The notes under the pieces: model-generated | Database searches by the model: none | The model's input: the letters and a program-made list of their open reading frames with translations, nothing else | What the model was told of the DNA's origin: nothing | In this document: positions 1 through 24,947 of the stretch, piece after piece | Layout: every line of letters starts with the position of its first letter | How positions within the stretch are numbered: the stretch's first letter is position 1 | Assembly (NCBI GenBank): GCA_051362555.1 | Contig: CM120645.1 | Span: 17,918,001-17,982,000, forward strand | Direction: 5' to 3' | Length of the DNA: 64,000 nucleotides | From: Lingula anatina | Lineage: Eukaryota > Animalia > Brachiopoda | Position numbers and translations under genes: made by a program

Positions 1-489
1 ATAACAAAGTGACAGTCACCTCAACCTGTCTATCTATAACAGGTTACCAAGAACTGGTAACTTTACTAACGTAACTCCATCACATTTACAGCAACTTATT
101 CATCCTGATGCTGACCTTGCAAGGAATTCAGTTTATTGGAATGTATTTCTGAATAACAAGTTAAGAAAATTCACTAGTTCACTAAAGACACAAAACAACT
201 GTCACGTTTACTTTAAAACCCTTTTGTTATTATTTTGATAAATTTATATAGTTACAGTATTGATAAACAAAGTATCACGTTTTCAATAATTAATATTTTA
301 AATTACAATCCATAACTGCATGGTTGTGTCAATTACCAATATACCATGTTGAGTCAATGTCACATTATGACGGTTTTTTGATGTGGCTGGATCAATGTTG
401 ATTTTACGTTGAATTTAGGTAGATCAACAGCAATTCAAAGTATCAACCTGTTTTCAACATTGATCCAACGTGCCTATGCCTGCTGGGTA

Positions 490-960
490 GAGCCAATTTT
501 AACATCTTCGACTTTCCAATTGTGGTGGTTGAGCTACACAAATTGTGAGACACCGATTGTTGTAGTGCTGACTAATTCCATTATGTTTAAAGTACTAGAG
601 CCGAATTTGACAGCATCGATTTTTCAATTGTTGTAGTTGAGCTGGACCAATCGCTAGGCTGGGAGAAAAACTGCAGGCTCCCCCTGGGATTCGAACCCGG
701 GACTCTTGCTCACTGTCCAACTGCTCTACCAACTGAGCTACCCAGCCAGGGCCAACACCCGGCAGCCGTTACAGGGGCTAGAGCCAATTTTAACATCTTC
801 GACTTTCCAATTGTGGTAGTTGAGCTAGACCAATCGCGACACACCGATTGTACTAGTTCGGATCAATTCCAGTATGTTTAAAGTACTATAGCCAATTTCG
901 ACAGCATAGACTTTCTGATTGTGGTAGTTGAGCTGGACCAATCACTAGGCTGGGAGAAAA
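490..960 (-). repeat. ~110-bp subrepeats associated with a tRNA-like head; mirrored at ~13670-14235
   Basis: Recurrent motif caattgtggtagttgagct(a/g)gaccaatc...acaccgattgt...gtttaaagtacta at ~515, 625, 808, 918; reverse-complement copies at 13680-14235. Confidence 0.75.
675..747 (-). ncRNA. Diverged tRNA-like/SINE head with Pol III A and B boxes
   Basis: Minus strand reads GGCTGGGTAGCTCAGTTGGTAGAGCA...GAGTCCCGGGTTCGAATCCCAGGGGGAGCCT then GCAGTTTTT (T5 terminator). Anticodon and acceptor stems are degenerate. An internally deleted mirror copy lies at ~13999-14051 (+). Confidence 0.75.
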
Positions 961-1482
961 ACGGCATTACAAAGCATAAGTCCAGTCTTTTTTCCAAACT
1001 CAAACCTGTTAAGGTAAACAGCGTGTTCCAATCCCAGGCGAGCCTGTCCCCCCAAAGAGACATTAGACCAACCGTTTAAGATAGAAAGGACTATTATGAC
1101 AATTTTAAGGAAATGTAAAGGGCATTTTCTTGACAGTCCCAGGTTAGAATCCCGAGCAAACCTGGTGTTTTCTCCCTCCAAAGAGACATAAGACAAACCG
1201 TTTACATTAGAAAGGAATATTATGACAATTTTAAGGTACTTTAAAGGGGATTAAGGCCAATTTGAAAACTATTGAGCTTACCTGACAAATCAAACAAGCA
1301 TTTCATAGTTTCTGAAATCAAAACTGTTCAGACAAACAGCGCCGACGTGGTGTGCCATGGCGCAATTTACCTGGAACCAATTCACCCCTCTTTCTTACCT
1401 CCACATCTACAAGAGCTCATGTCAAGATGAGCCTGGATCATTTCTTGACAGGTACCTGTAGTGGACAAGCAAGATGGACCCA

Positions 1483-1555
1483 GGCTTGGTAGCTCAGTTG
1501 GTTAGAACAGTCGGATGGTTTGCGAAAGTCCCGGGTTCGAATCCCGATCGAGTCT
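1483..1555 (+). pseudogene. tRNA-like element, copy L1
   Basis: A box TAGCTCAGTTGG, B box GGTTCGAATCC; mismatches in D, anticodon and T stems; TTTT follows within ~5 nt. Confidence 0.75.
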
Positions 1556-1834
1556 GGTGTTTTCTTCTCCAAAATAGACATTAGACCAACTGTTTACGAT
1601 AATAAAGACAATATGAATGACTGTTGAACTTACCTGACAAATCTAACAAGCATTTCATAGTTTCTGAAATCAAAACTGTTAAGACAAACAGCGCCGACGT
1701 GGTGTGCCATGACGCAATTTACCTGGAACCAATTCACCCCTCTTTCTTACCTCCACATCTACAAGAGCTCATGTCAAGATGAGCCTGGATCATTTCTTGA
1801 CAGGTACCTGTAGTGGACAAGCAAGATGGACAGA

Positions 1835-1907
1835 GGCTCGGTAGCTCAGTTGGTTAGAACAGTCGGATGGTTTGCGAAAGTCCCGGGTTCGAATCACGAT
1901 CGAGCCT
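1835..1907 (+). pseudogene. tRNA-like element, copy L2
   Basis: Same A box; T stem disrupted (GGTTCGAATCACGA); TTTT downstream. Confidence 0.7.
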
Positions 1908-2186
1908 GGTGTTTTCTTCTCCAAAATAGACATTAGACCAACTGTTTACGATAATAAAGACAATATGAATGACTGTTGAACTTACCTGCCAAATCTAACG
2001 AGCATTTCATAGTTTCTAAAATCAAAACTGTTAAGATAAACAGCGCCGACGTGGTGTGCCATGGCGCAATTTACCTGGAACCAATTCATCCCTCTTTCTT
2101 ACCTCCACTTCTAGGAGAGCTCATGTCAAGATGAGCCTGGATCATTTCTTGACAGGTACAGGTAGAGGACAAGCAAGGTTGACCCG

Positions 2187-2259
2187 GGCTCGGTAGCTCA
2201 GTTGGTTAGAGCAGTCGCATGGTTTGCGAAAGTCCCGGGTTCGAATCCCGGTCGAGCCT
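2187..2259 (+). tRNA. tRNA-like gene with near-intact cloverleaf (Pro-like body, nominal anticodon GGT), copy L3
   Basis: GGCTCGG-TA-GCTC AGTTGGTTA GAGC-A-GTCGC ATGGTTT GCGAA-AGTC-CCGGG TTCGAAT CCCGG-TCGAGCC-T. Acceptor, D and T stems pair fully; anticodon stem pairs 4/5; loop non-canonical (A32, T37); followed by GGTATTTT. Confidence 0.6.
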
Positions 2260-2520
2260 GGTATTTTCTTCTCCAAAATAGACATTAGACCAACTGTTTA
2301 CGATAATAAAGACAATATGAATGACTGTCTAACGAGCATTTCATAGTTTCTGAAATCAAAAATGTTAAGATAAACAGCGCCGACGTGGTGTGCCATGGCG
2401 CAATTTACCTGGAACCAATTCACCCCTCTTTCTTACCTCCACTTCTAGGAGAGCTCATGTCAAGATGAGCCTGGATCATTTCTTGACAGGTACAGGTAGA
2501 GGACAAGCAAGGTTGACCCG

Positions 2521-2593
2521 GGCTCGGTAGCTCAGTTGGTTAGAACTGTCGCATGGTTTGCGAAAGTCCCGGGTTCGAATCCCGATCGAGCCT
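2521..2593 (+). pseudogene. tRNA-like element, copy L4
   Basis: A/B boxes intact; GAAC in the D stem; CCCGA in the T stem; TTTT downstream. Confidence 0.75.
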
Positions 2594-2873
2594 GGTATTT
2601 TCTGCACCCATAAAAGACATTAGACCAACGGTTTACGGTAATGAGGACAAACTGAATGACTGTTGAGCTTACCTGACAAATCTAACGAGCATTTCATAGC
2701 TTCTAAATTCAAATTTGTTAAGACAAAAAGCGCCGACGTGTTGTGCCATGGCGCAATTTTCCTGGAACCAGTTCATCTCTCTTTATTACCTCCACATCTA
2801 CGAGAGCTCATGTCAAGATGAGCCTGGATCATTTCTTGACAGGTACCTGTAGTGGACAAGCAAGATTGACCAA

Positions 2874-2946
2874 GGCTCGGTAGCTCAGTTGGTTAGAACT
2901 GTCGCATGGTTTGCGAAAGTCCCAGGTTCAAATCCCGGTCGAGCCT
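2874..2946 (+). pseudogene. tRNA-like element, copy L5 (innermost)
   Basis: A box intact; T loop TTCAAAT as in many eukaryotic tRNA-Pro; ends TCGAGCCT. Confidence 0.75.
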
Positions 2947-3120
2947 GATGGTTTCTCCCCCATTAGACGATTAATCAATTTAAATTTAAAAGGCACTAAA
3001 TAAGCTAATCTGACTATTGAGCTGGGCCAGTACAACTGATAAAGGATAGAAACGACAATTTTAAGGCTCTTTAAGGGGGATTTAAGCCAATTCCTAGACT
3101 GTTAAGCTTGGCCCGTACAT

Positions 3121-6100
3121 AAAAAAAAAAGCGAAAAGAACGGCTTTAGAAACATGAAAAGAAGGGCTTTAGAGACTTGAAAAGAAGCAAAAAGAAAGGC
3201 TTTAGAGACATGTTAAGAGGGCGTTAGAGATGAAAAGAAGCGAAAAGAAGGGCGTTAGAGACATGAAATGAAGCGAAAAGAAGGGCTTTAGAGACATGAA
3301 AAGAAGGGCTTAAGGGAAAAAAAAGGAAGGAAAAGAAGGGCTTTAGAGACATGGAAAGGAAGGAAAAGAAGGGCTTGAGAGACATGAAAAGAACGGCTTA
3401 AGGGACAAAAAAGGAAGGAAAAGAAGGGCTTTAGAGACATGGAAAGGAAGGAAAAGAAGGGCTTAAGAGACATGAAAAGAACGGCTTAAGGGACAAAAAA
3501 GGAAGGAAAAGAAGGGCTTTAAAGACATGGAAAGGAAGGAAAAGAAGGGCTTTAGAGACATGGAAAGGAAGGAAAAGAAGGGCTTGAGAGACATGAAAAG
3601 AACGGCTTAAGGGACAAAAAAGGAAGGAAAAGAAGGGCTTTAGAGACATGGAAAGGAAGGAAAAGAAGGGCTTTAGAGACATGGAAAGGAAGGAAATGAA
3701 GGGCTTAAGAGACATGAAAAGAACGGCTTAAGGGACAAAAAAGGAAGGAAAAGAAGGGCTTTAGAGACATGGAAAGGAAGGAAAAGAAGGGCTTTAGAGA
3801 CATGGAAAGGAAGGAAAAGAAGGGCTTTAAAGACATGGAAAGGAAGGAAAAGAAGGGCTTTAGAGACATGGAAAGGAAGGAAAAGAAGGGCTTTAAAGAC
3901 ATTGAAAGGAAGGAAAAGAAGGGCTTTAAAGACATTGAAAGGAAGGGCTTAAGGGACAAAAAAGGAAGGAAAAGAAGGGCTTTAGAGACATGGAAAGGAA
4001 GGAAAAGAAGGGCTTTAGAGACATTGAAAGGAAGGAAAAGAAGGGCTTTAATGACATGGAAAGAAGGGCTTAAGGGACAAAAAAGGAAGGAAAAGAAATG
4101 CTTTAAAGACATGGAAAGGAAGGAAAAGAAGGGCTTTAGAGACATGGAAAGGAAGGAAAAGAAGGGCTTTAGAGACATTGAAAGGAAGGAAAAGAAGGGC
4201 TTTAATGACATGGAAAGAAGGGCTTAAGGGACAAAAAAGGAAGGAAAAGAAATGCTTTAAAGACATGGAAAGGAAGGAAAAGAAGGGCTTTAGAGACATG
4301 GAAAGGAAGGAAAAGAAGGGCTTAAGAGACAAAAAAGGAAGGAAAAGAAGGGCTTTAGAGACATGGAAAGGAAGGAAAAGAAGGGCTTTAGAGACATGGA
4401 AAGGAAGGAAAAGAAGGGCTTAAGAGACAAAAAAGGAAGGAAAAGAAGGGCTTTAGAGACATGGAAAGGAAGGAAAAGAAGGGCTTTAGAGACATGGAAA
4501 GGAAGGAAAAGAAGGGCTTAAGAGACATGAAAAGAACGGCTTAAGGGACAAAAAAGGAAGGAAAAGAACGGCTTAAGGGACAAAAAAGGAAGGAAAAGAA
4601 GGGCTTTAAAGACATGGAAAGGAAGGAAAAGAAGGGCTTAAGAGACATGAAAAGAACGGCTTAAGGGACAAAAAAGGAAGGAAAAGAAGGGCTTTAGAGA
4701 CATGGAAAGGAAGGAAAAGAAGGGCTTAAGAGACATGAAAAGAACGGCTTAAGGGACAAAATAGGAACGAAAAGAACGGCTTAAGGGACAAAAAAGGAAG
4801 GAAAAGAAGGGCTTTAGAGACATGGAAAGGAAGGAAAAGAAGGGCTTTAGAGACATGGAAAGGAAGGAAAAAAAGGGCTTTAAAGACATTGAAAGGAAGG
4901 AAAAGAAGGGCTTTAGAGACATGGAAAGGAAGGAAAAGAAGGGCTTTAGAGACATGGAAAGAACGGCTTAAGGGACAAAAAAGGGAGGAAAAAGAAGGGC
5001 TTTAGAGACATGGAAAGGAAGGAAAAGAAGGGCTTTAGAGACATGGAAAGAACGGCTTAAGGGACAAAAAAGGAAGGAAAAGAAGGGCTTTAGAGACATG
5101 GAAAGGAAGGAAAAGAAGGGCTTTGGAGACATGGAAAGGAAGGAAAAGAAGGGCTTTAAAGACATTGAAAGGAAGGAAAAGAAGGGCTTTAGAGACATGG
5201 AAAGAACGGCTTAAGGGACAAAAAAAGAAGGAAAAGAAGGGCTTTAGAGACATGGAAAGGAAGGAAAAAAAGGGCTTTAAAGACATTGAAAGGAAGGAAA
5301 AGAAGGGCTTTAGAGACATGGAAAGGAAGGAAAAGAAGGGCTTTAAAGACATTGAAAGGAAGGAAAAGAAGGGCTTTAGAGACATGGAAAGGAAGGAAAA
5401 AAAGGGCTTTAAAGACATTGAAAGGAAGGAAAAGAAGGGCTTTAGAGACATGGAAAGGAAGGAAAAGAAGGGCTTTAAAGACATTGAAAGGAAGGAAAAG
5501 AAGGGCTTTAGAGACATGGAAAGGAAGGAAAAGAAGGGCTTAAGAGACATGGAAAGGAAGGAAAAGAAGGGCTTTAAAGACATTGAAAGGAAGGAAAAGA
5601 AGGGCTTTAGAGACATGGAAAGGAAGGAAAAGAAGGGCTTAAGAGACATGAAAAGAACGGCTTAAGGGACAAAATAGGAAGGAAAAGAACGGCTTAAGGG
5701 ACAAAAAAGGAAGGAAAAGAAGGGCTTTAGAGACATGGAAAGGAAGGAAAAGAAGGGCTTTAGAGACATGAAAAGAACGGCTTAAGGGACAAAATAGGAA
5801 GGAAAAGAACGGCTTAAGGGACAAAAAAGGAAGGAAAAGAAGGGCTTTAGAGACATGGAAAGGAAGGAAAAGAAGGGCTTTAGAGACATGGAAAGGAAGG
5901 AAAAGAAGGGCTTAAGAGACATGGAAAGGAAGGAAAAGAAGGGCTTTAAAGACATTGAAAGGAAGGAAAAGAAGGGCTTTAGAGACATGGAAAGGAAGGA
6001 AAAGAAGGGCTTAAGAGACATGAAAAGAACGGCTTAAGGGACAAAATAGGAAGGAAAAGAACGGCTTAAGGGACAAAAAAGGAAGGAAAAGAAGGGCTTT

Positions 6101-8132
6101 AGAGACATGGAAAGGAAGGAAAAGAAGGGCTTTAGAGACATGGAAAGGAAGGAAAAGAAGGGCTTTAAAGACATTGAAAGGAAGGAAAAGAAGGGCTTTA
6201 GAGACATGGAAAGGAAGGAAAAGAAGGGCTTTAGAGACATGGAAAGGAAGGAAAAGAAGGGCTTTAAAGACATTGAAAGGAAGGAAAAGAAGGGCTTTAG
6301 AGACATGGAAAGAACGGCTTAAGGGACAAAAAAAGAAGGAAAAGAAGAGCTTTAGAGACATGGAAAGGAAGGAAAAGAAGGGCTTTAGAGACATGGAAAG
6401 AACGGCTTAAGGGACAAAAAAAGAAGGAAAAGAAGAGCTTTAGAGACATGGAAAGGAAGGAAAAGAAGGGCTTTAGAGACATGGAAAGAACGGCTTAAGG
6501 GACAAAAAAGGAAGGAAAAGAAGGGCTTTAGAGACATGGAAAGGAAGGAAAAGAAGGGCTTTAAAGACATTGAAAGGAAGGAAAAGAAGGGCTTTAGAGA
6601 CATGGAAAGAACGGCTTAAGGGACAAAAAAAGAAGGAAAAGAAGAGCTTTAGAGACATGGAAAGGAAGGAAAAGAAGGGCTTTAGAGACATGGAAAGAAC
6701 GGCTTAAGGGACAAAAAAGGAAGGAAAAGAAGGGCTTTAGAGACATGGAAAGGAAGGAAAAGAAGGGCTTTAAAGACATTGAAAGGAAGGAAAAGAAGGG
6801 CTTTAGAGACATGGAAAGAACGGCTTAAGGGACAAAAAAAGAAGGAAAAGAAGAGCTTTAGAGACATGGAAAGGAAGGAAAAGAAGGGCTTTAGAGACAT
6901 GGAAAGAACGGCTTAAGGGACAAAAAAGGAAGGAAAAGAAGGGCTTTAAAGACATGGAAAGGAAGGAAAAGAAGGGCTTTAGAGACATGGAAAGGAAGGA
7001 AAAGAAGGGCTTTAGAGACATGGAAAGGACGGCTTTAGAGACATGGAAAGGAAGGAAAAGAAGGGCTTTAGAGACATGGAAAGGAAGGAAAAGAAGGGCT
7101 TTAGAGACATGGAAAGAAGGGCTTTAGAGACATGGAAAGGAAGGAAAAGAAGGGCTTTAGAGACATGGAAAGGAAGGAAAAGAAGGGCTTAAGAGACATG
7201 AAAAGAACGGCTTAAGGGACAAAAAAGGAAGGAAAAGAAGGGCTTTAGAGACATGGAAAGGAAGGAAAAGAAGGGCTTTAGAGACATGGAAAGGAAGGAA
7301 AAGAAGGGCTTTAGAGACATGGAAAGGAAGGAAAAGAAGGGCTTTATAGACATTGAAAGGAAGGAAAAGAAGGGCTTTAGAGACATGGAAAGGAAGGAAA
7401 AGAAGGGCTTAAGAGACATGAAAAGAACGGCTTAAGGGACAAAATAGGAAGGAAAAGAACGGCTTAAGGGACAAAAAAGGAAGGAAAAGAAGGGCTTTAA
7501 AGACATTGAAAGGAAGGAAAAGAAGGGCTTTAGAGACATGGAAAGAACGGCTTAAGGGACAAAAAAGGAAGGAAAAGAAGGGCTTTAGAGACATGGAAAG
7601 GAAGGAAAAAAAGGGCTTTAAAGACATTGAAAGGAAGGAAAAGAAGGGCTTTAGAGACATTGAAAGGAAGGAAAAGAAGGGCTTTAGAGACATGGAAAGG
7701 AAGGAAAAGAAGGGCTTTAGAGACATGGAAAGGAAGGAAAAGAAGGGCTTAAGAGACATGAAAGAGAACGGCTTAAGGGACAAAATAGGAAGGAAAAGAA
7801 CGGCTTAAGGGACAAAAAAGGAAGGAAAAGAAGGGCTTTAAAGACATTGAAAGGAAGGAAAAGAAGGGCTTTAGAGACATGGAAAAAACGGCTTAAGGGA
7901 CAAAAAAGGAAGGAAAAGAAGGGCTTTAGAGACATGGAAAGGAAGGAAAAGAAGGGCTTTAGAGACATGGAAAGAACGGCTTAAGGGACAAAAAAGGAAG
8001 GAAAAGAAGGGCTTTAGAGACATGGAAAGGAAGGAAAAGAAGGGCTTTAGAGACATGGAAAGAACGGCTTAAGGGACAAAAAAGAAGGAAAAGAAGAGCT
8101 TTAGAGACATGGAAAGGAAAGGCTTTAGAAAG
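3121..8132 (+). repeat. Purine-rich minisatellite, left arm (33-bp unit TTTAGAGACATGGAAAGGAAGGAAAAGAAGGGC plus 23- and 32-bp variants)
   Basis: Direct reading; ORF offsets of 88, 121 and 209 bp (6385/6594/6803) show higher-order periodicity. Confidence 0.97.
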
Positions 8133-8134
8133 GC

Positions 8135-11100
8135 TTCCTTCTTTTCCTTCTTTTTTTGTCCCTTAAGCCGTTCTTTTCATGTCTCTAAAGCCCTTCTTTT
8201 CCTTCCTTTCCATGTCTCTAAAGCCCTTCTTTTCCTTCCTTTCTATGTCTCTCAAGCCCTTCTTTTCCTTCCTTTCCATGTCTCTAAAGCCCTTCTTTTC
8301 CTTCCTTTCCATGTCTTTAAAGCCCTTCTTTTCCTTCCTTTTTTGTCCCTTAAGCCGTTCTTTTCATGTCTCTCAAGCCCTTCTTTTCCTTCCTTTCCAT
8401 GTCTCTAAAGCCCTTCTTTTCCTTCCTTTCCATGTCTTTAAAGCCCTTCTTTTCCTTCCTTTCCATGTCTCTAAAGCCCTTCTTTTCCTTCCTTTCTATG
8501 TCTCTCAAGCCCTTCTTTTCCTTCCTTTCCATGTCTCTAAAGCCCTTCTTTTCCTTCCTTTCCATGTCTTTAAAGCCCTTCTTTTCCTTCCTTTTTTGTC
8601 CCTTAAGCCGTTCTTTTCATGTCTCTCAAGCCCTTCTTTTCCTTCCTTTCCATGTCTCTAAAGCCCTTCTTTTCCTTCCTTTCCATGTCTTTAAAGCCCT
8701 TCTTTTCCTTCCTTTTTTGTCCCTTAAGCCGTTCTTTTCATGTCTCTTAAGCCCTTCTTTTCCTTCCTTTCCATGTCTCTAAAGCCCTTCTTTTCGCTTC
8801 ATTTCTTGTCTTTAAAGCCCTTCTTTTCCTTCCTTTCCATGTCTTTAAAGCCCTTCTTTTCCTTCCTTTCCATGTCTTTAAAGCCCTTCTTTTCCTTCCT
8901 TTTTTGCCCCTTAAGCCCTTCCTTTCCATGTCTCTAAAGCCCTTCTTTTCCTTCCTTTCCATGTCTTTAAAGCCCTTCTTTTCCTTCCTTTCCATGTCTT
9001 TAAAGCCCTTCTTTTCCTTCCTTTTTTGTCCCTTAAGCCCTTCTTTTCATGTCTCTTAAGGCCTTCTTTTCCTTTCTTTTCATATTTTTAACGCCCTTCT
9101 TTTCGCTTCTTTTCATCTCTAACGCCCTCTTTTCATGTCTCTAAAGCCCTTCTTTTCCTTCCTTTCCATGTCTTTAAAGCCCTTCTTTTCCTTCCTTTTT
9201 TGTCCCTTAAGCCGTTCTTTTCATGTCTCTCAAGCCCTTCTTTTCCTTCCTTTCCATGTCTCTAAAGCCCTTCTTTTCCTTCCTTTCCATGTCTTTAAAG
9301 CCCTTCTTTTCCTTCCTTTTTTGTCCCTTAAGCCGTTCTTTTCATGTCTCTTAAGCCCTTCTTTTCCTTCCTTTCCATGTCTCTAAAGCCCTTCTTTTCG
9401 CTTCATTTCTTGTCTTTAAAGCCCTTCTTTTCCTTCCTTTCCATGTCTTTAAAGCCCTTCTTTTCCTTCCTTTCCATGTCTTTAAAGCCCTTCTTTTCCT
9501 TCCTTTTTTGCCCCTTAAGCCCTTCCTTTCCATGTCTCTAAAGCCCTTCTTTTCCTTCCTTTCCATGTCTTTAAAGCCCTTCTTTTCCTTCCTTTCCATG
9601 TCTTTAAAGCCCTTCTTTTCCTTCCTTTTTTGTCCCTTAAGCCCTTCTTTTCATGTCTCTTAAGGCCTTCTTTTCCTTTCTTTTCATATTTTTAACGCCC
9701 TTCTTTTCGCTTCTTTTCATCTCTAACGCCCTCTTTTCATGTCTCTAAAGCCCTTCTTTTCCTTCCTTTTTTGTCCCTTAAGCCGTTCTTTTCATGTCTC
9801 TTAAGCCCTTCTTTTCCTTTCTTTCCATGTCTCTAACGCCCTTCTTTTCGCTTTTTTTCATCTCTAACGCCTTCTTTTCATGTCTCTAAAGCCCTTCTTT
9901 TCGCTTCATTTCTTGTCTTTAAAGCCCTTCTTTTCCTTCCTTTCCATGTCTCTAAAGCCCTTCTTTTCCTTCCTTTCCATGTCTCTAAAGCCCTTCTTTT
10001 CCTTCCTTTCCATGTCTCTAAAGCCCTTCTTTTCCTTCCTTTCCATGTCTCTAAAGCTCTCTTTCTCCTTCCTTTTTTGTCTCATAAGCCCTTCCTTTCC
10101 ATGTCTCTAAAGCCCTTCTTTTCCTTTCTTTTCATGTCTCTAAAGCTCTCTTTCTCCTTCCTTTTTTGTCTCATAAGCCCTTCTTTTCATGTCTCTAAAG
10201 CCCTTCTTTTCCTTCCTTTCCATGTCTCTAAAGCCCTTCTTTTCCTTCCTTTCCATGTCTCTTAAGCCCTTCTTTTCCTTTCTTTCCATGTCTCTAACGC
10301 CCTTCTTTTCGCTTTTTTTCATCTCTAACGCCCTCTTTTCATGTCTCTAAAGCCCTTCTTTTCGCTTCATTTCTTGTCTCTTAAGCCCTTCTTTTCCTTC
10401 CTTTTTTGTCCCTTAAGCCCTTCCTTTCCATGTCTCTAAAGCCCTTCTTTTCCTTCCTTTCCATGTCTCTAAAGCCCTTCTTTTCCTTCCTTTCCATGTC
10501 TTTAAAGCCCTTCTTTTCCTTCCTTTTTTTGTCCCTTAAGCCCTTCTTTTCATGTCTCTTAAGGCCTTCTTTTCCTTTCTTTTCATATTTTTAACGCCCT
10601 TCTTTTCGCTTCTTTTCATCTCTAACGCCCTCTTTTCATGTCTCTAAAGCCCTTCTTTTCCTTCCTTTCCATGTCTTTAAAGCCCTTCTTTTCCTTCCTT
10701 TCCATGTTTTTAAAGCCCTTCTTTTCCTTCCTTTTTTTGTCCCTTAAGCCCTTCTTTTCATGTCTCTAATGCCCTTCTTTTCCTTCCTTTCAATGTCTTT
10801 AAAGCCCTTCTTTTCCTTCCTTTCCATGTCTCTAAAGCCCTTCTTTTCCTTCCTTTTCCATGTCTTTAAAGCCCTTCTTTTCCTTCCTTTCCATGTCTCT
10901 AAAGCCCTTCTTTTCATGTCTCTAAAGCCTTTCTTTTCCTTCCTTTTTTGTCTCTTAAACCCTTCTTTTCATGTCTCTAAAGCCCTTCTTTTCCTTCCTT
11001 TCCATGTCTCTAAAGCCCTTCTTTTCATGTCTCTAAAGCCTTTCTTTTCCTTCCTTTTTTGTCTCTTAAACCCTTCTTTTCATGTCTCTAAAGCCCTTTT

Positions 11101-11496
11101 ATTCCTTTCTTTTTTGTCTCTTAAGCCCTTTTATTCCTTTCTTTTCATGTCTCTAAAGCCCTTCTTTTCCTTTCTTTTCATGTCTCTAAAGCCCTTTTAT
11201 TCCTTTCTTTTCATGTCTCTAAAGCCCTTCTTTTCATGTCTCTTAAGCCTTTCTTTTCCTTCCTTTTGTGTCTCTTAAGCCTTTCTTTTCATGTCTCTAA
11301 AGCCCTTCTTTTCCTTCTTTTCATGTCTCTAAAGCCCTTTTATTCCTTTATTTTTTTGTCTCTTAAGCCCTTCTTTTCATGTCTCTAAAGCCCTTTTATT
11401 CCTTTCTTTTTTGTCTCTTACGCCCTTCTTTTCATGTCTCTAAAGCCTTTCTTTTCCTTCCTTTTTTGGCTCTTAAGTCCTTCTTTTCATGTCTCT
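8135..11496 (-). repeat. Same minisatellite in inverted orientation, right arm
   Basis: Unit gcccttcttttccttcctttccatgtctctaaa; internal 253-bp and 604-bp duplications (ORF ends 8408/8661, ORF starts 8740/9344); degenerates outward. Confidence 0.97.
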
Positions 11497-11694
11497 GTAC
11501 TGGCCCAGCTCAACAGTCTAGGAATTGGTTTAAATCCCCCTTAAAGGGCCGAAAAGTCCCTTAAAATTGTCATTTCTATCCTTAAATCGGTTGTACTGGC
11601 CCAGCTCAATAGTCAAATAGTAAAATCCCTTTTTTAGTGCCTTTTAAATTTAAATTGATCTATCGTAAACGGTTGGTCGGGGGAGAAACCATCA

Positions 11695-11767
11695 GGGCTC
11701 GACCGGGATTCGAACCCGGGACATTCGCAAACCATGCGACAGTTCTAACCAACTGAGCAACCGAGCC
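11695..11767 (-). pseudogene. tRNA-like element, copy R1 (innermost)
   Basis: Minus strand: GGCTCGGTTGCTCAGTTGGTTAGAACTGTCGCATGGTTTGCGAATGTCCCGGGTTCGAATCCCGGTCGAGCCC; the 3' end CGAGCCC matches tRNA-Pro. Confidence 0.75.
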
Positions 11768-12046
11768 TGGGTCAATCTTGCTTGTCCACTACAGGTACCT
11801 GTCAAGAAATGATCCAGGCTCATCTTGACATGAGCTCTCGTAGATGTGGAGGTAATAAAGAGAGATGGACTGGTTCCAGGAAAATTGCGCCATGGCACAA
11901 CACGTCGGCGCTGTTTGTCTTAACAGATTTGAATTCAGAAACTATGAAATGCTCGTTAGATTTGTCAGGTAAGCTCAACAGTCACTCAATTTGTCCTTAT
12001 TATCATAAACAGTTGGTTTAATGTCTATTTTGGAGAAGAAAACACC

Positions 12047-12119
12047 AGGCTCGACCGGGATTCGAACCCGGGACTTTCGCAAACCATCCACCTGTTCTAA
12101 CCAACTGAGCTACCGAGCC
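12047..12119 (-). pseudogene. tRNA-like element, copy R2
   Basis: A/B boxes, acceptor and T stems intact; anticodon stem broken. Confidence 0.75.
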
Positions 12120-12398
12120 TGGGTCAATCTTGCTTGTCCACTATAGGTACCTGTCAAGAAATGATCCAGGCTCATCTTGACATGAGCTCTCGTAGATGTG
12201 GAGGTAATAAAGAGAGATGAACTGGTTCCAGGAAAATTGCGCCATGGCACAACACGTCGGCGCTGTTTGTCTTAACAGATTTGAATTCAGAAACTATGAA
12301 ATGCTCGTTAGATTTGTCAGGTAAGCTCAACAGTCATTCAATTTGTCCTTATTATCATAAACAGTTGGTCTAATATCTATTTTGGAGAAGAAAACACC

Positions 12399-12471
12399 AG
12401 GCTCGACCGGGATTCGAACCCGGGACTTTCGCAAACCATCCAGCTGTTCTAACCAACTGAGCTACCGAGCC
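12399..12471 (-). pseudogene. tRNA-like element, copy R3
   Basis: As R2. Confidence 0.75.
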
Positions 12472-12750
12472 TGGGTCAATCTTGCTTGTCCACTATAGGT
12501 ACCTGTCAAGAAATAATCCAGGCTCATCTTGACATGAGCTCTCGTTGATGTGGAGGTAATAAAGAGAGATGAACTGGTTCCAGGAAAATTGCGCCATGGC
12601 ACAACACGTCGGCGCTGTTTGTCTTAACAGATTTGAATTCAGAAACTATGAAATGCTCGTTAGATTTGTCAGGTAAGTTCAACAGTCATTCATATTGTCT
12701 TTATTATTGTAAACAGTTGGTCTAATGTCTATTTTGGAGAAGAAAACACC

Positions 12751-12823
12751 AGGCTTGACCGGGATTCGAACCCAGGACTTTCGCAAACCATGCAACTGCT
12801 CTAACCAACTGAGCTACCGAGCC
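12751..12823 (-). pseudogene. tRNA-like element, copy R4
   Basis: Intact D stem (GAGC) and A/B boxes; shares diagnostic variants with L3/L4. Confidence 0.75.
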
Positions 12824-13102
12824 CGGGTCAACCTTGCTTGTCCTCTACCTGTACCTGTCAAGAAATGATCCAGGCTCATCTTGACATGAGCTCTCGTAGA
12901 AGTGGAGGTAATAAATAGGGGTGAATTGGTTCCAGGTAAATTGTGCCATGGCACACCACGTCGGCGCTGTTTATCTTAACAGTTTTGATTTCAGAAACTA
13001 TGAAATGCTCGTTAGATTTGTCAGGTAAGTTCAACAGTCATTCATATTGTCTTTATTATTGTAAACAGATGGTCTAATGTCTATTTTGGAGAAGAAAACA
13101 CC

Positions 13103-13175
13103 AGGCTCGATCGGGATTCGAACCCGGGACTTTCGCAAACCATCCGACTGTTCTAACCAACTAAGCTACCGAGCC
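13103..13175 (-). pseudogene. tRNA-like element, copy R5 (outermost)
   Basis: B box intact; shares GTCGGATGG and CCCGA variants with L1/L2. Confidence 0.75.
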
Positions 13176-14164
13176 TGGGTCCATCTTGCTTGTCCACTAC
13201 AGGAACCTGTCAAGAAATGATCCAGTTTCATCTCGACATGAGCTCTTGTAGATGTGGAGGTAATAAAGAGAGATGAACTGGTACCAGGTGCTGTTTGTCT
13301 TAACAGATTTGAATTCAGGAACTATGAAATGCTTGTTAGATTTGTCAGGTAAGCTCAATAGTTTTCAAATTGGCCTTAATCCCCTTTAAAATACCTTAAA
13401 ATTGTCATAATACTCCTTTCTAATGTAAACGGTTTGTCTTATGTCTCTTTGGAGGTTTGCCCGGGATTCTAACCCGGGACAGCTGTCAAGAAAATGCCCT
13501 TTACATTTCCTTAAAATTGTCATAATAGTCCTTTCTATCTTAAACGGTTGGTCTAATGTCTCTTTGGGGAGACAGGCTCGACTGGGATTGGAACCCGCTG
13601 TTTACCTTAACAGGTTTGAGTTTGGAAAAAAGACTGGACTGGACTGGACTGGGCTTTGTAATGCCATTTTTCTCCCAGCCTAGTGATTGGTCCAGCTCAA
13701 CTACCACAATCGGAAAGTCGATGCTTTCGAAATTGGCTATAGTACTATAAACATACTGGAATTGATCCGAACTAGTACAATCGGTGTGTCGCGATTGGTC
13801 TAGCTCAACTACCACAATCCGAAAGTTGATGCTGTCTAAATCGGCATTACTGCCTTTGAAAGTACTTTGAACACACTGGAATCAGTGGTCTAGCGCAATC
13901 GATGTGTCCCGATTGTTCTAGCTCAACTACCACAATCGGAAAGTCGAAGATGATAAAATTGGCTCTAGCCCCTGTAGCCGCTGGCGGGTATTGGCCCTGG
14001 CTGGGTAGCTCAGTGTGCAAAAGTCCCGGGTTAGAATCTCAGGGTGACCCTGAAGTTTTATCCGAGCCTCGCGATTGTTCCAGTTCAACTACCACAATCA
14101 AAAAGTTGATGCTGTTGAAATCGGCTCTAGTACTTTAAACATACTGGAATTAGTCCAAACTACT

Positions 14165-14742
14165 ACAATCGGTGTGTCACAATTTGTCTAGCTCAACCAC
14201 CACAATTGGAAAGTCGAAGATGTTAAAATTGGCTCTACCCAGCAGGCATAGTCGCGTTGGATCAACGTTGAAAACAGGTTGATACTTTAAATTGCTTTTG
14301 ATCTACCTAAATTCAATGTAAAATCAACGTTGATCCAGCCATGTCAAAACACCGTCATAATGTGACATTGACTCAACGTTGTATTTTGGTAATTGACCCA
14401 ACCTTGAAGTTATGGATTGTAATTTAAAATATTAATTATTGAAAACGTGATACTTTGTTTATCAATACTGTAACTAAATTTATCAAAATAATAACAAAAG
14501 GGTTTTAAAGTAAAAGTGACAGTTGTTTTGTGTCTTTAGTGAACTAGTGAATTTTCTTAACTTGTTATTCAGAAATACATTCCAATAAACTGAATTCCTT
14601 GCAAGGTCAGCATCAGGATGAATAAGTTGCTGTAAATGTGATGGAGTTACGTTAATAAAGTTACCAGTTCTTGGTAACCTGTTATAGGTAGACAGGTTGA
14701 GGTGACTTTGTTTTATATATATATATATATATATCATATATC

Positions 14743-14799
<57 letters not shown>

Positions 14800-16516
14800 A
14801 TCACTGTGATGTGTCTATGTTGTAACTGCTGTATATGTCTCCACATATTCTTAATTAATGATGTGTTCTCTGATTTCAGCAGAGATGAAGGTGTATTTCC
14901 TTGATTATCATCATACTTAGGACATCTAAACTCTTCATCACATCAGGACCGCAACATTGCAGCCTCAGCACAGGTCAGTGCAATAATGATATTGCTATAC
15001 TTTGTTGTTCTCTTTTGACCAGCACCATTATATATATTATCTTGTTAATTATCATTTTGTAAAAGGGTTACTTAGGTCCTACTCAGTTTTAGTACAATCG
15101 GTGTGTCGCGATTGGTCTAGCTCAACTACCACAATTGGAAAGTCGACGATGTTAAAATTGGCTCTACCCAGCAGGCATAGTTGCATTGGATCAACATTGA
15201 AAACAGGTTGATACGTTGAATTGCTGTTGATCTACCTAAATTCAATGTAAAATCAGCGTTGATCCAGCCACGTCAAAACACCGTCATAATGTGACATTGA
15301 CTCAACGTTGTATTTTGGTCATTGACACAACCTTACAGTTATGGATTGTAATTTAAAATATTAATTATTGAAAACGTGATACTTTGTTTTTCAATACTGT
15401 AACTATATAAATTTATCAAAATAATAACAAAAGGGTTTTAAAGTAAAAGTGACAGTTGTATTGTGTCTTTAGTGAACTAGTGAATTTTCTTAACTTGTTA
15501 TTCAGAAATACATTCCAATAAACTGAATTCTTTGCAAGGTCAGCATCAGGATGAATAAGTTGCTGTAAATGTGATGGAGTTACGTTAGTAAAGTTACCAG
15601 TTCTTGGTAACCTGTCATAGATAGACAGGTTGAGGTGACTGTTACTTTGTTATATATATATATATATTGATCACTGTGATGTGTCTATGTTGTAACTGCT
15701 GTATATGTCTCCACATATTCTTAATTAATGATGTGTTCTCTGATTTCAGCAGAGATGAAGGTGTATCTCCTTGATTATCATCATACTTAGGACATCTAAA
15801 CTCTTCATCACATCAGGACCGCAACATTGCAGCCTCAGCACAGGTCAGTGCAATAATGATATTGCTATACTTTGTTGTTCTCTTTTGACCAGCACCACTT
15901 TATATATTATCTTGGTAATTATCATTTTGTAAAAGGGTTACTTAGGTCCTACTCAGTTTTAGTACAATCGGTGTGTCGCGATTGGTCTAGCTCAACCACC
16001 ACAATTGGAAAGTCGAAGATGTTAAAATTGGCTCTACCCAGTAGGCATAGTCGTGTTGGATCAACGTTGAAAACAGGTTGATAACGTTGAATTGCTGTTG
16101 TTCTACCTAAATTCAATGTAAAATCAATGTTGATCCAGCCACGTCAAAACACCGTCATAATGTGACATTGACTCAACATTGTATTTTGGTCATTGACACA
16201 ACCTTCTAGTTATGGATTGTAATTTAAAATATTAATTATTGAAAACATGATACTTTGTTTATCAATACTGTAACTAAATTTATCAAAATAATAACAAAAG
16301 GGTTTTAAAGTAAAAGTGACAGTTGTTTTGTGTCTTTAGTGAACTAGTGAATTTTCTTAACTTGTTATTCAGAAATACATTCCAATAAACTGAATTCTTT
16401 GCAAGGTCAGCATCAGGATGAATAAGTTGCTGTAAATGTGATGGAGTTACGTTAGTAAAGTTACCAGTTCTTGGTAACCTGTTATAGATAGACAGGTTGA
16501 GGTGTCTGTGACTTTG

Positions 16517-16576
<60 letters not shown>

Positions 16577-17690
16577 ATCACTGTGATGTGTCTATGTTGT
16601 AACTGCTGTATATGTCTCCACATATTCTTAATTAATGATGTGTTCTCTGATTTCAGCAGAGATGAAGGTGTATTTCCTTGATTATCATCATACTTAGGAC
16701 ATCTAAACTCTTCATCACATCAGGACCGCAACATTGCAGCCTCAGCACAGGTCAGTGCAATAATGATATTGCTATACTTTGTTGTTCTCTTTTGACCAGC
16801 ACCACTATATATATTATCTTGGTAATTATCATTTTGTAAAAGGGTCTCTTAGGTCCTACTCAGTTTTAGTACAATCGGTGTGTCGCGATTGGTCTAGCTC
16901 AACCACCACAATTGGAAAGTCGAAGATGTTAAAATTGGCTCTACCCAGTAGGCATAGTCGTGTTGGATCAACGTTGAAAACAGGTTGATAACGTTGAATT
17001 GCTGTTGTTCTACCTTAATTCAATGTAAAATCAACGTTGATCCAGCCACGTCAAAACACCGTCATAATGTGACATTGACTCAACATTGTATTTTGGTCAT
17101 TGACACAACCTTCTAGTTATGGATTGTAATTTAAAATATTAATTATTGAAAACATGATACTTTGTTTATCAATACTGTAACTAAATTTATCAAAATAATA
17201 ACAAAAGGGTTTTAAAGTAAAAGTGACAGTTTTTTTGTGTCTTTATTGAACTAGTGAATTTTCTTAACTTGTTATTCAGAAATACATTCCAATAAACTGA
17301 ATTCCTTTCAAGGTCAGCAACAGGATGAATAAGTTGCTGTAAATGTGATGGAGTTCTGTTAATAAATTTACCAGTTCTTGGTAACCTGTTATAGATAGAC
17401 AGGTTGAGGTGACTGTGACTTTGTTATATATTGATCACTGTGATGCGTCTATGTTGTGTTCTCTGATTTCAGCAGAGATGAAGGTGTATTTCCTTGATTA
17501 TCATCATACTTAGGACATCTAAACTCTTCATCACATCAGGACCACAACATTGCAGCCTCAGCACAGGTCAGTGCAATAATGATATTGCTATACTTTGTTG
17601 TTCTCTTTTGACCAGCACCACTATATATATTATCTTGGTAATTATCATTTTGTAAAAGGGTCACTTAGGTCCTACTCAGTTTTATCTATG
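14165..17690 (+). repeat. Four tandem ~870-930-bp composite units (CCCAG-headed repeat + (AT)n + exon-like cassette)
   Basis: ctacccag(c/t)aggcatag at ~14235, 15165, 16034, 16941; near-identical ORFs at 15002, 15872, 16779; length differences come mainly from the (AT)n tract. Confidence 0.93.
14714..14793. repeat. (AT)n microsatellite; paralogous tracts at ~15651-15666 and ~16518-16573, nearly absent at ~17425
   Basis: Direct reading. Confidence 0.95.
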
Positions 17691-20624
17691 TTCAAAGTGA
17701 AAGTAATGTCAACTTGCAGGGGTGAAGAAAATTTTCTGACGGTCATTCCAATCCCTATAAATAAACACTAAATTTTGTTTTTATTCTGATGCCTCACAGT
17801 GCATTGTGTTTTGTGACACTAAATGTGTGTGTATTTTCTGATCACTGTATATGTGTGTTTTATCACTGTATGACTGTTTAAATATAATCTGATCTCTGTG
17901 TTATATTTGTGTTGTAACTACTGTGTATGTCTGCATATATTCTTTATTGATGATGTGTTTTCTGATTTCAGCAGAGATGAAGGTATGTCTGTTGGATTAT
18001 CATTTCACTGAGGAGAGCTAATTTATAAACTCATCATCACCTACAATATCTACATCCTTGTAGCCTTAGTAGAGGTCAGTGCAAAAAAAAAAATTATAAT
18101 GTGTTCTCTTTAAACCCTTTGTGGCCATCACCACTATATAATATAAAATAATACCTGGGAATATATCACTTTGTTAATGGGACACTTAGATCCCACTCAG
18201 TTTTGTATATGTTAGAAGGGGTTAATGTGAACTTGTGGGGGTGAGCAAGAATTACTGACAGTCACTTAAATCCCTATATATGAACTTTAAATTCAATGTT
18301 TGTATTCTCATGCCTCACAGTGCATTGTCTTTTGTGACACTGTGTGTGTCTATATATATTCTGATCACTATCTATGTTTGTATATCTGTATATATTCTGA
18401 TCACTATCTATGTTTGTGTTGTGGCTGTAAAAGGGTCACTTAGAGATTTATATATGTTTAGAGTTTAAAAGGTTAATGTGAACTCGTGGATGTAATCAAA
18501 ATTTTCTGACAGTCATTCCAAACCCTGTATATAAACATTAAATTTTATGTTTATATTCTGATGCCTTAGAGTGCATTGGATTTTGTGAGGCTGTATTTGT
18601 CTGTATAAATTCTGATCACTATCTATGTTTGTGTTGTGGCTGTATGTGTTTATATATATTTTGATCACTGTGATGCGTCTATTTTGTAACTGCTGTATAT
18701 GTCTGCATATATTCTTTTCAGCGGAGATGAAGGTGTGTCTTCTGGATTATCATCACACTGAGGACAGCTAAACTCGTCATCACATCAAGATCTCCAGCAT
18801 CGCAGCCTCACCACAGGTCAGCGCAAAAATGATATTGCTATACTTTGTTGTTCTCTTCAATCCCCTTTTGATCCTTACCACTTTATATAGTTCCTGGGAA
18901 ATTATCATTTTAAAAGGGTCACTTGAGGACAGTCCCGCAGATATTTGGATTGATCTATCTCCGTAGGGAGTCTTACTAAATTGCTATCAACTTAACCATC
19001 TTAAATGTCTGTCATGCTTAGTAAAGCTGTAAGGGGGTAATTATCTTTACCCCCTAGTTGGTTTGATATAACTGGCTGACAGTTAAGTCGATAAAGTTGA
19101 TAGCAATCTAGTGAGACTCCTTAGGGAGTTAGACCAATCCAGATGGATTGATCAAGGTATGGAAACTTAGGGTGCTTTCCCAGAGATTTAGATCGATCTA
19201 AGGATTAAGATTTAGATCGACCCAACTCCCTGGGGGTTCAAGCTAAATTGCAGTCAGCTGAGCGGGCGCCATAGTTAATTACCCCTTTACAGCTTTTAGT
19301 AGGCGGGACAGACGCTTAAGCCGGCCAAGCTGACAGTAATCTAGTGAGACTCCCCACAGGGATAGATCGATCTAAAAATCTATGGTAATGGGGTGTTAGT
19401 CTTAGATCCCACACAGTTTTATATATGTTCAAATTGACAAGGGTTGATATGAACTCGTAGGGGTGGGAAGGCGCTGAGAAAAATCTGTATATAGATAAAA
19501 TTTCTTGCAAATTATCATTTTTAAAAGGGTCACTTAAATCCCACAGAGTCTTATATATGTTCAGAGTGAAAAGGGTTAATATGAACTAGTGGGTGTGAAC
19601 AAGAATTTCTGGCAGTCATTCCAATTCCTATATATAAAGATTAAATTTAATGTTTGTATTCTCATGCCTCACAGTGCATTGTCTTTTGCGATACTCTGTG
19701 TGTTTGTATATATTCTGCTTACTGTATATGTCTGTTTTGTCACTGTTTGAAAGTCAAAATACATTTTGATCTTTGTATTACATCTGTGTTGTATATACTG
19801 TATGTGCCTGTGTATGTTATATATTGATGGTTTCTCTAATTTCAGCAGAGATGAAGGTATGTCTCTTGGATTATCATCCAACATACTGAGGACAGCTAAT
19901 TTAAAAACTCATCATCACCAGCAAGATTTACAATGTCACAGCTTCAGCACAGGTCAGTGCATCAATCATATTGCTATACTTTATTGTTCTTTTCAATACC
20001 CTTTTGACCCTCACAACTAGAAAAAATATCTTGCATACATTCTGAAGCCTGTGTACTGCATGTTGTGATGCTGTATGTGTCTCTATATTGAACTTTAAAT
20101 TCAATGTTTGTATTCTCATGCCTCACAGTGCATTGTCTTTTGTGACACTGTGTGTGTCTATATATATTCTGATCACTATCTATGTTTGTATATCTGTATA
20201 TATTCTGATCACTATCTATGTTTGTGTTGTGGCTGTAAAAGGGTCACTTAGAGATTTATATATGTTTAGAGTTTAAAAGGTTAATGTGAACTCGTGGATG
20301 TAATCAAAATTTTCTGACGGTCATTCCAAACCCTGTATATAAACATTAAATTTTATGTTTATATTCTGATGCCTTAGAGTGCATTGAATTTTGTGAGGCT
20401 GTATGTGTCGGTATAAATTCTGATCACTATCTATGTTTGTGTTGTGGCTGTATGTGTTTATATATATTTTGATCACTGTGATGTGTCTATTTTGTAACTG
20501 CTGTATATGTCTGCTTATATTCTTTTCAGCGGAGATGAAGGTGTGTCTTCTGGATTATCATCACACTGAGGACAGCTAAACTCGTCATCACATCAAGATC
20601 TCCAGCATCGCAGCCTCACCACAG
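14880..20624 (+). other. Eight copies of an exon-like cassette of 94-107 nt (14880-14973, 15750-15843, 16657-16750, 17473-17566, 17972-18074, 18722-18816, 19846-19952, 20530-20624); putative non-coding exons
   Basis: Each is preceded by a pyrimidine tract ending TTTCAG and followed by AG|GTCAG(T/C); splice signals persist in diverged copies. Copies 14880 and 18722 have stop codons in all three frames. Confidence 0.55.
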
Positions 20625-20690
20625 GTCAGCGCAAAAATGATATTGCTATACTTTGTTGTTCTCTTCAATCCCCTTTTGATCCTTACCCGA
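18280..20690 (+). repeat. Direct duplication of ~600 bp (18280-18880 and 20088-20685)
   Basis: Identical ORFs at 18280 and 20088 (offset 1808); identity continues through the exon-like cassette. Confidence 0.9.
18925..19402. mobile_element. Two adjacent, oppositely oriented ~210-bp foldback MITE-like elements of one family
   Basis: 18944-18993 pairs with ~19094-19143 (~50-bp IR); ~19179-19260 pairs with ~19328-19385; the internal motif aagctgtaagggggtaatta is inverted in the second copy; the block splits the local motif aaagggtcactt|agatcccac. Confidence 0.7.
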
Positions 20691-20797: not shown

Positions 20798-20843
20798 AAT
20801 ATTGCTTTACCTGTGTTCGGTGTTCATCATCACTATATATAGT

Positions 20844-22235: not shown

Positions 22236-22689
22236 TAATATGATTTTCATTTTTCTCAAATATATTGTTCTTTTTCCAGGTGACCCTTTCCATACAGCAT
22301 GGTGGCTTCTTGGGGAACTGACTCTACTTATCTTGTAATGGATAATACCTATAGAAAAAGTAGGCAGTGAAAAACAGCAGCAAGAGCAGTGCATTATCTC
22401 ATCCATGTGTAGAATACATGATATGTGGCAAGATTATAAACGTCAAATGATGTGCAAAGCCTGATTTTAGACACCCATTACAAGGAGGAATCTGCATCTG
22501 GTATTGGTAGTAAGAAGAAATCTTGAATGGATATATATTGTTTCCAGATGACAATAATGGGTAATTTGTCTCCTCTTACACAACCAAACTCAAATCATAA
22601 CATAAAATGCTTCATTTGATACTGAATAATATTATTGTAATACTGAAAATTTTATTTTTTGTCATTCTCAATCTTCTCCTATCAATTGC

Positions 22690-24882: not shown

Positions 24883-24947
24883 AATTAATCTAAACACAGA
24901 TAAACCACTATGAATAACAATGTGTATGAAAGTGATTAGAAATTTGT

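What the first reader, a model, noticed from the sequence alone, without database searches (positions are those of the whole stretch)
11795..13348. Possible micro-exon gene antisense to the tRNA-like array: symmetric phase-1 exons of 57 and 42 nt per unit
Seen in unit R1 (+ strand): acceptor cttgcttgtccactacAG|11795; exon A 11795-11851 (57 nt); donor GAG|GTAATA (GTAAGA in most left-arm copies); 75-nt intron ending ctgtttgtcttaacAG; exon B 11927-11968 (42 nt); donor CAG|GTAAG(C/T). Both exons are multiples of 3 and exon A is open only in phase 1. Spliced, they give a 33-aa repeat GTCQEMIQAHLDMSSRRCG-DLNSETMKCSLDLS. The in-frame TGA present in most copies falls inside the 75-nt intron. Against: R3 has a TGA in exon A, and R4, L3 and L4 lack the exon A acceptor. 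Inference: a skippable micro-exon repeat gene (as in schistosome MEGs) or a spliced lncRNA, mirrored on the minus strand of the left arm.
Basis: inference. Interest (0 to 1): 0.7.

Follow-up and report, generated by a model that had tools for sequence, protein, structure and literature searches.

The report
Amplified short-exon cassette, weakly spliced RNA
Ten copies of a 352-base unit carry two short exon-like pieces with strong splice signals and are weakly transcribed, but most reads run through them unspliced, so this is likely a decaying non-coding repeat RNA rather than a working micro-exon protein gene.

Summary
The anatomy is real. Exon A (57 nt), a 75-nt intron and exon B (42 nt) sit at the stated coordinates. 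There are ten units, five on each arm of a diverged palindrome, and the four splice sites beat shuffled units (p 0.014; 0.0007 with the frame conditions). RNA from the same species label is weak and on the + strand. No A^B or B^A joint was listed in 4 runs. Intron-only bins are covered about as deeply as exon bins (1.5 vs 1.8). Variants in the proposed frame are 2 synonymous, 14 replacement and 1 stop; only 5 of 10 units are intact; no upstream exon or signal peptide and no credible homologue was found. Best reading: an exon-intron piece with an antisense tRNA-derived head was amplified in tandem, then inverted, and is now the 5' part of a likely non-coding spliced RNA, possibly of coding ancestry. 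A live micro-exon gene is not excluded, because depth was only about 22 reads (probability about 0.12).

The parts
11684..13378 (+). Right-arm array: five units of period 352 nt (R1-R5; R5 has a 28-nt deletion)
11795..11851 (+). Exon-like segment A, unit R1 (copies 12147-12203, 12499-12555, 12851-12907, 13203-13259); use as an exon not shown
   Evidence: no joint listed
11927..11968 (+). Exon-like segment B, unit R1 (copies 12279-12320, 12631-12672, 12983-13024, 13307-13348)
13307..13348 (+). Segment B of R5: its donor is used, joined to an exon of family C
   Evidence: 3 reads with loose ends behind 13348 in run X4
11695..11767 (-). tRNA-derived (SINE-head-like) element inside the 178-nt B-to-A intron; copies 12047-12119, 12399-12471, 12751-12823, 13103-13175
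   Evidence: Rfam tRNA 34.5-43.6 bits; ARAGORN; folds
1252..2962 (-). Left-arm mirror array, five units (exon A starts at 2846, 2493, 2159, 1807, 1455 on the minus strand; tRNA-like heads on + at 1483, 1835, 2187, 2521, 2874)
14..14707 (.). Diverged palindrome: 14-3187 pairs with 11425-14707 at about 88% identity, centre near 8130; it runs off the left end of the window
3124..11496 (.). Central 33/23-nt purine/pyrimidine satellite, itself inverted at about 8130
14880..20624 (+). Second tandem exon family C, eight copies: 14880-14973, 15750-15843, 16657-16750, 17473-17566, 17972-18074, 18722-18816, 19846-19952, 20530-20624 (94-107 nt, none a multiple of 3); a 3' remnant at 26752-26774
   Evidence: acceptor use shown by the 3 reads (copy not resolved); donors of C not tested in RNA
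22280..22338 (+). Candidate later exon: strong acceptor (12.5 bits), 18 open codons in phase 1 then a stop; AATAAA at 22691; untested

Best explanation
The 352-nt unit is a tandemly repeated exon-intron cassette in a weakly transcribed, spliced + strand RNA, and it is likely a decaying non-coding (pseudogene-like or lncRNA) 5' region, not a working micro-exon protein gene. Shown: the unit has four good splice sites and an antisense tRNA-derived head in one intron; it is copied five times on each arm of a palindrome; it is transcribed on the + strand; the last B donor joins an exon of family C; most reads cross the array unspliced. Inferred history: a tRNA-derived element sat antisense in an intron of a small-exon gene; unequal crossing-over or slippage amplified [head-A-B], and separately [C plus intron]; an inverted duplication copied an array of about three units, and each arm then expanded on its own. 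Inferred working: transcription would start in or just before the array and run outward from the palindrome centre. With no upstream exon, the array would act mostly as one long first exon or as retained introns, closed by the last donor. A coding ancestry in phase 1 is possible (about even odds) but no longer under purifying selection.
For: Splice scores above shuffles and real tiles. All array reads in X4, X1 and X2 have the first mate on minus, and the GT-AG joint at 13348 is a + strand joint. In X4 the four bins with under 7% exon average depth 1.5 against 1.8 for the other twelve; depth does not track exon fraction (p 0.40, 15 bins). Three reads carry left-arm-type letters at 12912 and 12916, inside the A-B intron just after the stronger GTAAGA donor, against 4 reads at 12896 in exon A. 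Poly(A) run X2 covers intron-rich bins. 5 of 10 units are broken. Best upstream donor 4.2 bits. C exons have indels and stops. Unit tree mixes the arms: R4 with two left units at 100/100, R1 with L1 at 86/84. No credible protein relative.
Against: Both exons being 3n and jointly open in one phase is about a 1-in-20 event given strong sites (0.0007/0.014). The first 32 nt of family C show 5 synonymous and 2 replacement variants in the same phase (P 0.015), weakening to 6 of 13 over 50 nt (P 0.10). RNA depth is about 22 array reads in the best run, joints under 3 reads are not listed and may scatter over five copies, and X4's selection is unspecified, so unspliced reads may be precursor RNA. The one joint rests on 3 reads, possibly fewer molecules. 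A high replacement rate also fits diversifying selection.
Confidence: 0.65

Rival explanations
1. SINE-derived tandem repeat with passengers: the array is only a satellite-like amplification around a tRNA-derived element, transcribed by read-through; A and the B acceptor were never exons, and only the last donor is used cryptically.
For: No A or B-acceptor joint listed. Splice dinucleotides decay at least as fast as the rest of the unit. Tandem and palindromic SINE arrays inside introns are reported in bivalves (PMC11481361, passages), and SINE-derived satellites in reptiles (PMC10702118, abstract).
Against: Four top-ranking sites in the right order on the transcribed strand (p 0.014 to <0.001). 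None of the four sites lies in the tRNA-derived part. The + strand of 11500-27000 has 34 candidate exons against 6 on minus (copies are not independent).
Confidence: 0.18
2. Live micro-exon protein gene: A and B are skippable phase-1 exons that give a variable number of 33-residue repeats, ended by one of the C exons as alternative C-termini, expressed in a tissue or stage not sampled here.
For: 3n lengths and a shared open phase. The B-to-C joint would continue that phase for 12 codons. Weak synonymous excess in C. An in-frame ATG lies in exon A1 at 11809. MEGs are reported to have high dN/dS (PMC8293314, passages).
Against: No joints, and introns are covered. No upstream exon or signal peptide. 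Exons are longer than the 36-bp MEG limit. Half the units are broken. The stop in C lies 53 nt before a donor with seven more C copies behind it, which by the general nonsense-mediated-decay rule (recalled) would mark the mRNA for decay if later exons are spliced in. No homologue.
Confidence: 0.12
3. The functional unit is on the other strand or is double-stranded: an array of RNA polymerase III tRNA-like genes, or a long hairpin that feeds small-RNA pathways, with the + strand RNA as an antisense by-product.
For: All ten heads are matched by the Rfam tRNA model (9 of 10 above the gathering score of 29). The best copy folds as a cloverleaf, z -3.0. A-box, B-box and a short T run are visible in the sequence. 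The arms are 88% complementary.
Against: The best copy has a 5-nt anticodon loop, and the anticodon arm is lost in R2. Heads vary as much as the rest of the unit (0.24 variants per column). No array read had the opposite orientation in 4 runs, so no read-through hairpin was seen; these libraries lose small RNAs.
Confidence: 0.05

Closest known systems
Schistosome micro-exon genes (MEGs), as described in the reviews PMC8293314 and PMC4015677 (passages read)
   Same: Short symmetric exons that could be skipped without a frameshift; repeat-rich surroundings; an excess of replacement changes.
   Different: MEG exons are mostly 36 bp or shorter and follow a signal-peptide exon, and skipping isoforms and proteins are observed. 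Here the exons are 57 and 42 nt near-identical repeats, no leader exon is found, no skipping was seen, and half the units are broken.
Tandem and palindromic tRNA-derived SINE arrays in bivalve introns (PMC11481361, passages) and SINE-derived satellites of squamates (PMC10702118, abstract and outline)
   Same: Head-to-tail copies of a tRNA-derived head with flanking DNA, direct and inverted, inside a transcription unit.
   Different: Here about 260 of 352 nt are host-like sequence with four splice sites, and one donor is used in RNA. No SINE family, tail or target-site duplication could be assigned.
Spliced lncRNAs and transcribed pseudogene fragments with tandemly duplicated exons (general class, recalled)
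   Same: Low expression, GT-AG splicing, repeated exons with frameshifting lengths, no conserved reading frame.
   Different: Two separate exon arrays in one unit and a mirrored 5' end on a palindrome; function and conservation untested.

Membership tests
Micro-exon gene (MEG-type) | Symmetric exons, length a multiple of 3 | tested here: met
   57 and 42 nt, both open in phase 1
Micro-exon gene (MEG-type) | Coding region mainly of exons of 36 bp or less | tested here: not met
   57 and 42 nt; limit from PMC8293314
Micro-exon gene (MEG-type) | 5' exon with signal peptide | tested here: not met
   Best + donor between 8130 and 11794 is 4.2 bits; the region is satellite plus about 300 nt. Only this window was examined.
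Micro-exon gene (MEG-type) | Transcripts spliced at the micro-exons, with skipping isoforms | tested here: inconclusive
   No joint listed in 4 of 9 runs, 6-25% of each read; about 22 array reads in the best run, introns covered
Micro-exon gene (MEG-type) | Protein product made and secreted | not testable with these tools
   No ribosome or proteome data; no credible homologue
Micro-exon gene (MEG-type) | Raised dN/dS | tested here: inconclusive
   2 synonymous of 17 variants: P 0.14 under neutrality
Functional tRNA gene | Cloverleaf fold | tested here: inconclusive
   Formed by 2 of the 3 array heads folded (2187 and 12751 copies); R2 loses the D and anticodon arms
Functional tRNA gene | 7-nt anticodon loop of canonical form | tested here: not met
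   5-bp stem with a 5-nt loop in the best copy; the Rfam alignment has a mismatched pair there
tRNA-derived SINE | tRNA-like head with A and B boxes | tested here: met
tRNA-derived SINE | Many dispersed copies, LINE-like tail, target-site duplication | not testable with these tools
   No genome held; one diverged copy in the window at 662-755, 80% over 97 nt, plus remnants
Spliced lncRNA / transcribed pseudogene | Transcribed, longer than 200 nt, spliced at GT-AG | tested here: met
   Coverage in successive bins 11925-12352 and 12781-13348, and one joint in 3 reads; thin support
Spliced lncRNA / transcribed pseudogene | No constrained reading frame | tested here: inconclusive
   No purifying selection in A and B; weak synonymous excess in C, P 0.015-0.10

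The most novel reading that the evidence does not exclude
A micro-exon repeat gene outside the described schistosome families: five skippable two-exon modules, each intron holding an antisense tRNA-derived element, spliced to one of eight alternative C-terminal exons, and present twice head-to-head on a palindrome. It would make a family of small peptides of variable repeat number in a tissue not sampled here.
Probability: 0.1. Interest if true: 0.65.

Novelty: new member of a known kind. Interest (0 to 1): 0.28.

Why it matters
As most likely read, it is a local example of how tandem and inverted duplication recycle exon-intron pieces and a tRNA-derived repeat into a species-specific non-coding transcript: ordinary in kind, tidy as a case. 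It would matter more if the short exons are spliced and translated somewhere, because that would show a combinatorial micro-exon peptide gene being built by repeat amplification. One deep, splice-aware look at existing RNA runs would settle that.

Tried and rejected
No whole genome is held, so no parent gene, orthologue or genome-wide copy number could be sought. Sequencing-run search: no RNA holder listed; nine runs came by species label. Only one lay of reads gave data; a second, over the downstream exons and with three further runs, gave none, so C-to-C joints, the 22280 exon and deeper A/B counts stay untested. The unspliced 90-codon frame of R1 (11749-12018), which holds both exon translations, gave no candidate at similar length, none of 16 longer candidates at E<=10 and no Pfam family at E<=1. 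Its one HMMER hit among 1.84 billion (E 2.4e-5) is a bacterial HYR-repeat protein; rejected as a sum of five weak repeats of about 26 bits that begin in the predicted intron. Two metagenome loci matched a short peptide translated from the intron and share no DNA similarity with the window: chance. The spliced 33-residue repeat itself was not used as a query. Exon B in phase 2 has more synonymous changes (3 of 7) but one stop, and exon A is closed in that phase: not pursued. Rfam miRNA and snoRNA matches at the palindrome centre are far below their gathering scores and reflect the hairpin. Assembly artefact rejected for the palindrome: arms differ by about 12% and have different unit histories. 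An 11-nt micro-exon at the start of C (internal donor 9 bits in four copies) is not what the three reads show: their 30-letter consensus runs past it. Three look-ups in earlier findings returned nothing. Paper searches were by general terms; they cannot show that this locus is undescribed. No supplements were read.

Full report
Setting. The window is repeat-rich DNA with spliceosomal-type signals and a LINE fragment, so eukaryotic and probably animal (inference). No whole genome is held. Positions 14-3187 are an inverted copy of 11425-14707 at about 88% identity, around a 33/23-nt satellite (3124-11496) that itself turns at about 8130. Each arm holds five 352-nt units. Each unit has a tRNA-like head on the strand opposite to the proposed exons. 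Rfam matches all ten (28.0-54.7 bits, nine above the gathering score 29) and ARAGORN calls eight. Of three array heads folded, the best gives a cloverleaf (z -3.0) with a 5-nt anticodon loop, one gives a weaker cloverleaf, and R2 loses two arms. A diverged, separate copy lies at 662-755 (80% over 97 nt). These are degenerate tRNA-derived heads of SINE type, not likely working tRNAs; SINE membership could not be tested without a genome.

Observation. Additional defects: acceptor B is lost in L1 and L2, donor B is deleted in L2, and the R5 intron is 47 nt. Five of ten units keep all four dinucleotides and an open exon A. With recalled, approximate weight tables the R1 sites score 10.3, 5.8, 6.4 and 11.8 bits. 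In unit R2 they are the two best acceptors and two best donors on the + strand. Of 1500 dinucleotide shuffles searched on both strands, 1.4% match the four-site score, 0.2% with both lengths a multiple of 3, and 1 with an open repeat frame as well; for L4 the counts are 1, 0 and 0. Of 214 overlapping real tile-strands from outside the array, 1 reaches the R2 score and none does with the 3n condition; the six best-scoring tiles are all + strand tiles between 14808 and about 22400. The exon-like anatomy is therefore more than chance, though it is one ancestral observation chosen after the fact.

RNA. No indexed RNA holder was listed; nine raw-read runs came by species label. Four of the nine were laid on 11497-14700, reading about 6% of X1, X4 and X2 and 25% of X7. 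Reads laid: 23, 42, 243 and 20; nearly all of X7's fall on a dispersed repeat at 14172-14700. On the array, X4 gives about 2950 aligned letters (about 22 reads), X2 about 450, X1 about 150 and X7 none. No joint was listed; the table needs 3 reads from 2 starts. Three X4 reads leave the stretch exactly at 13348, the B donor of R5, and continue with 30 letters that match the start of a downstream exon family: one mismatch to the copy at 15750, two to the copy at 14880. This is a GT-AG joint on the + strand. The bin holding that donor has 119 X4 letters, 99 of which three junction reads would explain, and the next bin is empty, so this donor seems well used in X4. The X1 letters there fit either one unspliced read or two junction reads. 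The loose part has a median of 67 letters, so the laid part probably exceeds the 42-nt exon and runs into the 47-nt intron (inference; that shortened intron may be unspliceable and says little about other units).

Elsewhere the array is read through. In X4 the four bins with under 7% predicted exon average depth 1.5 and the other twelve 1.8; depth does not follow exon fraction (p 0.40 over 15 bins; 0.17 over the 10 covered ones). Four reads show a left-arm-type letter in exon A at 12896 and three show such letters at 12912 and 12916 inside the intron, so the stronger GTAAGA donor is crossed unspliced there; those unit types lack acceptor A. Poly(A) run X2 also covers intron-rich bins. Letters at 12896, 12912, 12992 and 13570 match left-arm units, while 13621 matches neither arm. 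So some reads come from the left arm, another copy or another allele, in the same sense relative to the unit. That fits transcription outward from the centre. No array read had the opposite orientation, so no read-through hairpin was seen. Limits: low depth, joints may scatter over five copies, X4's selection is unspecified, and a second lay gave no data.

Downstream exons. Family C has eight copies from 14880 to 20624 of 94, 94, 94, 94, 103, 95, 107 and 95 nt, each with AG and GT kept while the inside has indels; seven are closed in all three phases. A remnant lies at 26752, and a strong acceptor (12.5 bits) at 22280 precedes 18 open codons in phase 1; both are untested. Joined to B in phase 1, the first C copy gives 12 codons and a stop 53 nt before its donor.

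Coding test. The neutral expectation is about 0.26 synonymous: P 0.14 under neutrality, 0.009 at omega 0.5, below 0.0001 at omega 0.2. Exons are slightly less variable than the rest (0.16 and 0.19 variants per column against 0.21-0.37), on small counts. No donor above 4.2 bits lies between the centre and exon A1, so there is no leader exon in this arm. Searches with the unspliced R1 frame found nothing credible. For a coding ancestry: the 3n lengths and shared open phase are about 1 in 20 given strong sites, and the first 32 nt of C have 5 synonymous and 2 replacement variants in that same phase (P 0.015), fading to 6 of 13 over 50 nt (P 0.10). This is suggestive only.

History. The unit tree mixes the arms: R4 groups with L2 and L3 (100/100), R1 with L1 (86/84), R2 with R3 (91/87); only one inner branch is starred. 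The simplest reading is an array of about three units that was inverted, with later expansion in each arm (inference; gene conversion would blur it). The divergence argues against an assembly artefact.

Comparison. MEGs are described as mostly 36-bp or shorter symmetric exons behind a signal peptide, with observed skipping and high dN/dS (PMC8293314 and PMC4015677; passages only; the original MEG paper was not read). This locus meets symmetry, fails size and leader, and is inconclusive on skipping, so it is not filed as a MEG. Tandem and palindromic arrays of tRNA-derived SINEs inside introns are reported in bivalves (PMC11481361; passages) and SINE-derived satellites in reptiles (PMC10702118; abstract and outline). 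Other papers were seen only as search listings.

Verdict. Observation confirmed; interpretation partly supported. Most likely an amplified, decaying exon cassette at the 5' end of a weak spliced non-coding RNA (0.65). Rivals: passenger sites in a SINE-derived repeat (0.18), a live micro-exon gene (0.12), a polymerase III or hairpin locus (0.05). Interest 0.28.

Noticed in passing
window 52290-53297 (minus strand, frame 52448-53323): 5'-truncated LINE fragment inserted in the satellite; 291 open codons match the C-terminal part of 34 proteins with reverse transcriptase, many also with endonuclease domains (best E 5.5e-34).
   Followed up: partly
window 26800-64000: About 350-nt TG-rich satellite with a 49-nt sub-period and higher-order repeats. 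It starts right after a remnant of exon C and shares sequence with the introns between C copies, so it may have grown out of an intron of the same transcription unit.
   Followed up: partly
window 36307-36411, 39070-39174, 50416-50509, 53579-53692, 56748-56861: The same roughly 105-nt non-satellite insert recurs five times in the satellite and marks higher-order duplications.
   Followed up: no
window 14161-17684: Recent tandem duplication of a roughly 870-900-nt unit (92-95% identity) that holds the four youngest C exons; 18271-18879 is duplicated at 20080-20687 at 98.7%.
   Followed up: partly
window 14172-14700: Dispersed repeat that draws diverged reads on both strands from other loci, above all in X7.
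   Followed up: no
window 13530-13743: A patch of about five X4 reads inside the B-to-C intron, over degenerate partial copies of the unit, including a diverged copy of acceptor B near 13612; possibly an alternative exon or left-arm RNA.
   Followed up: partly
window 11927-11968 and 14880-14911: Phase-1 translations of B and of the start of C resemble each other over about seven residues (an MK..C..LD pattern, seen by eye); possibly ancient exon duplication, not tested.
   Followed up: no
window 18943-19144 and about 26600-26745: Short palindromic, MITE-like inserts; the first is a self-match, the second seen by eye, where it replaces the 5' part of the last C copy.
   Followed up: no
window 13667-14240 and 485-960: Repeated hairpin-like subunits around a second, oppositely oriented tRNA-like head (662-755 and its degenerate mirror near 13990-14059); may be the body of a larger element.
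   Followed up: no
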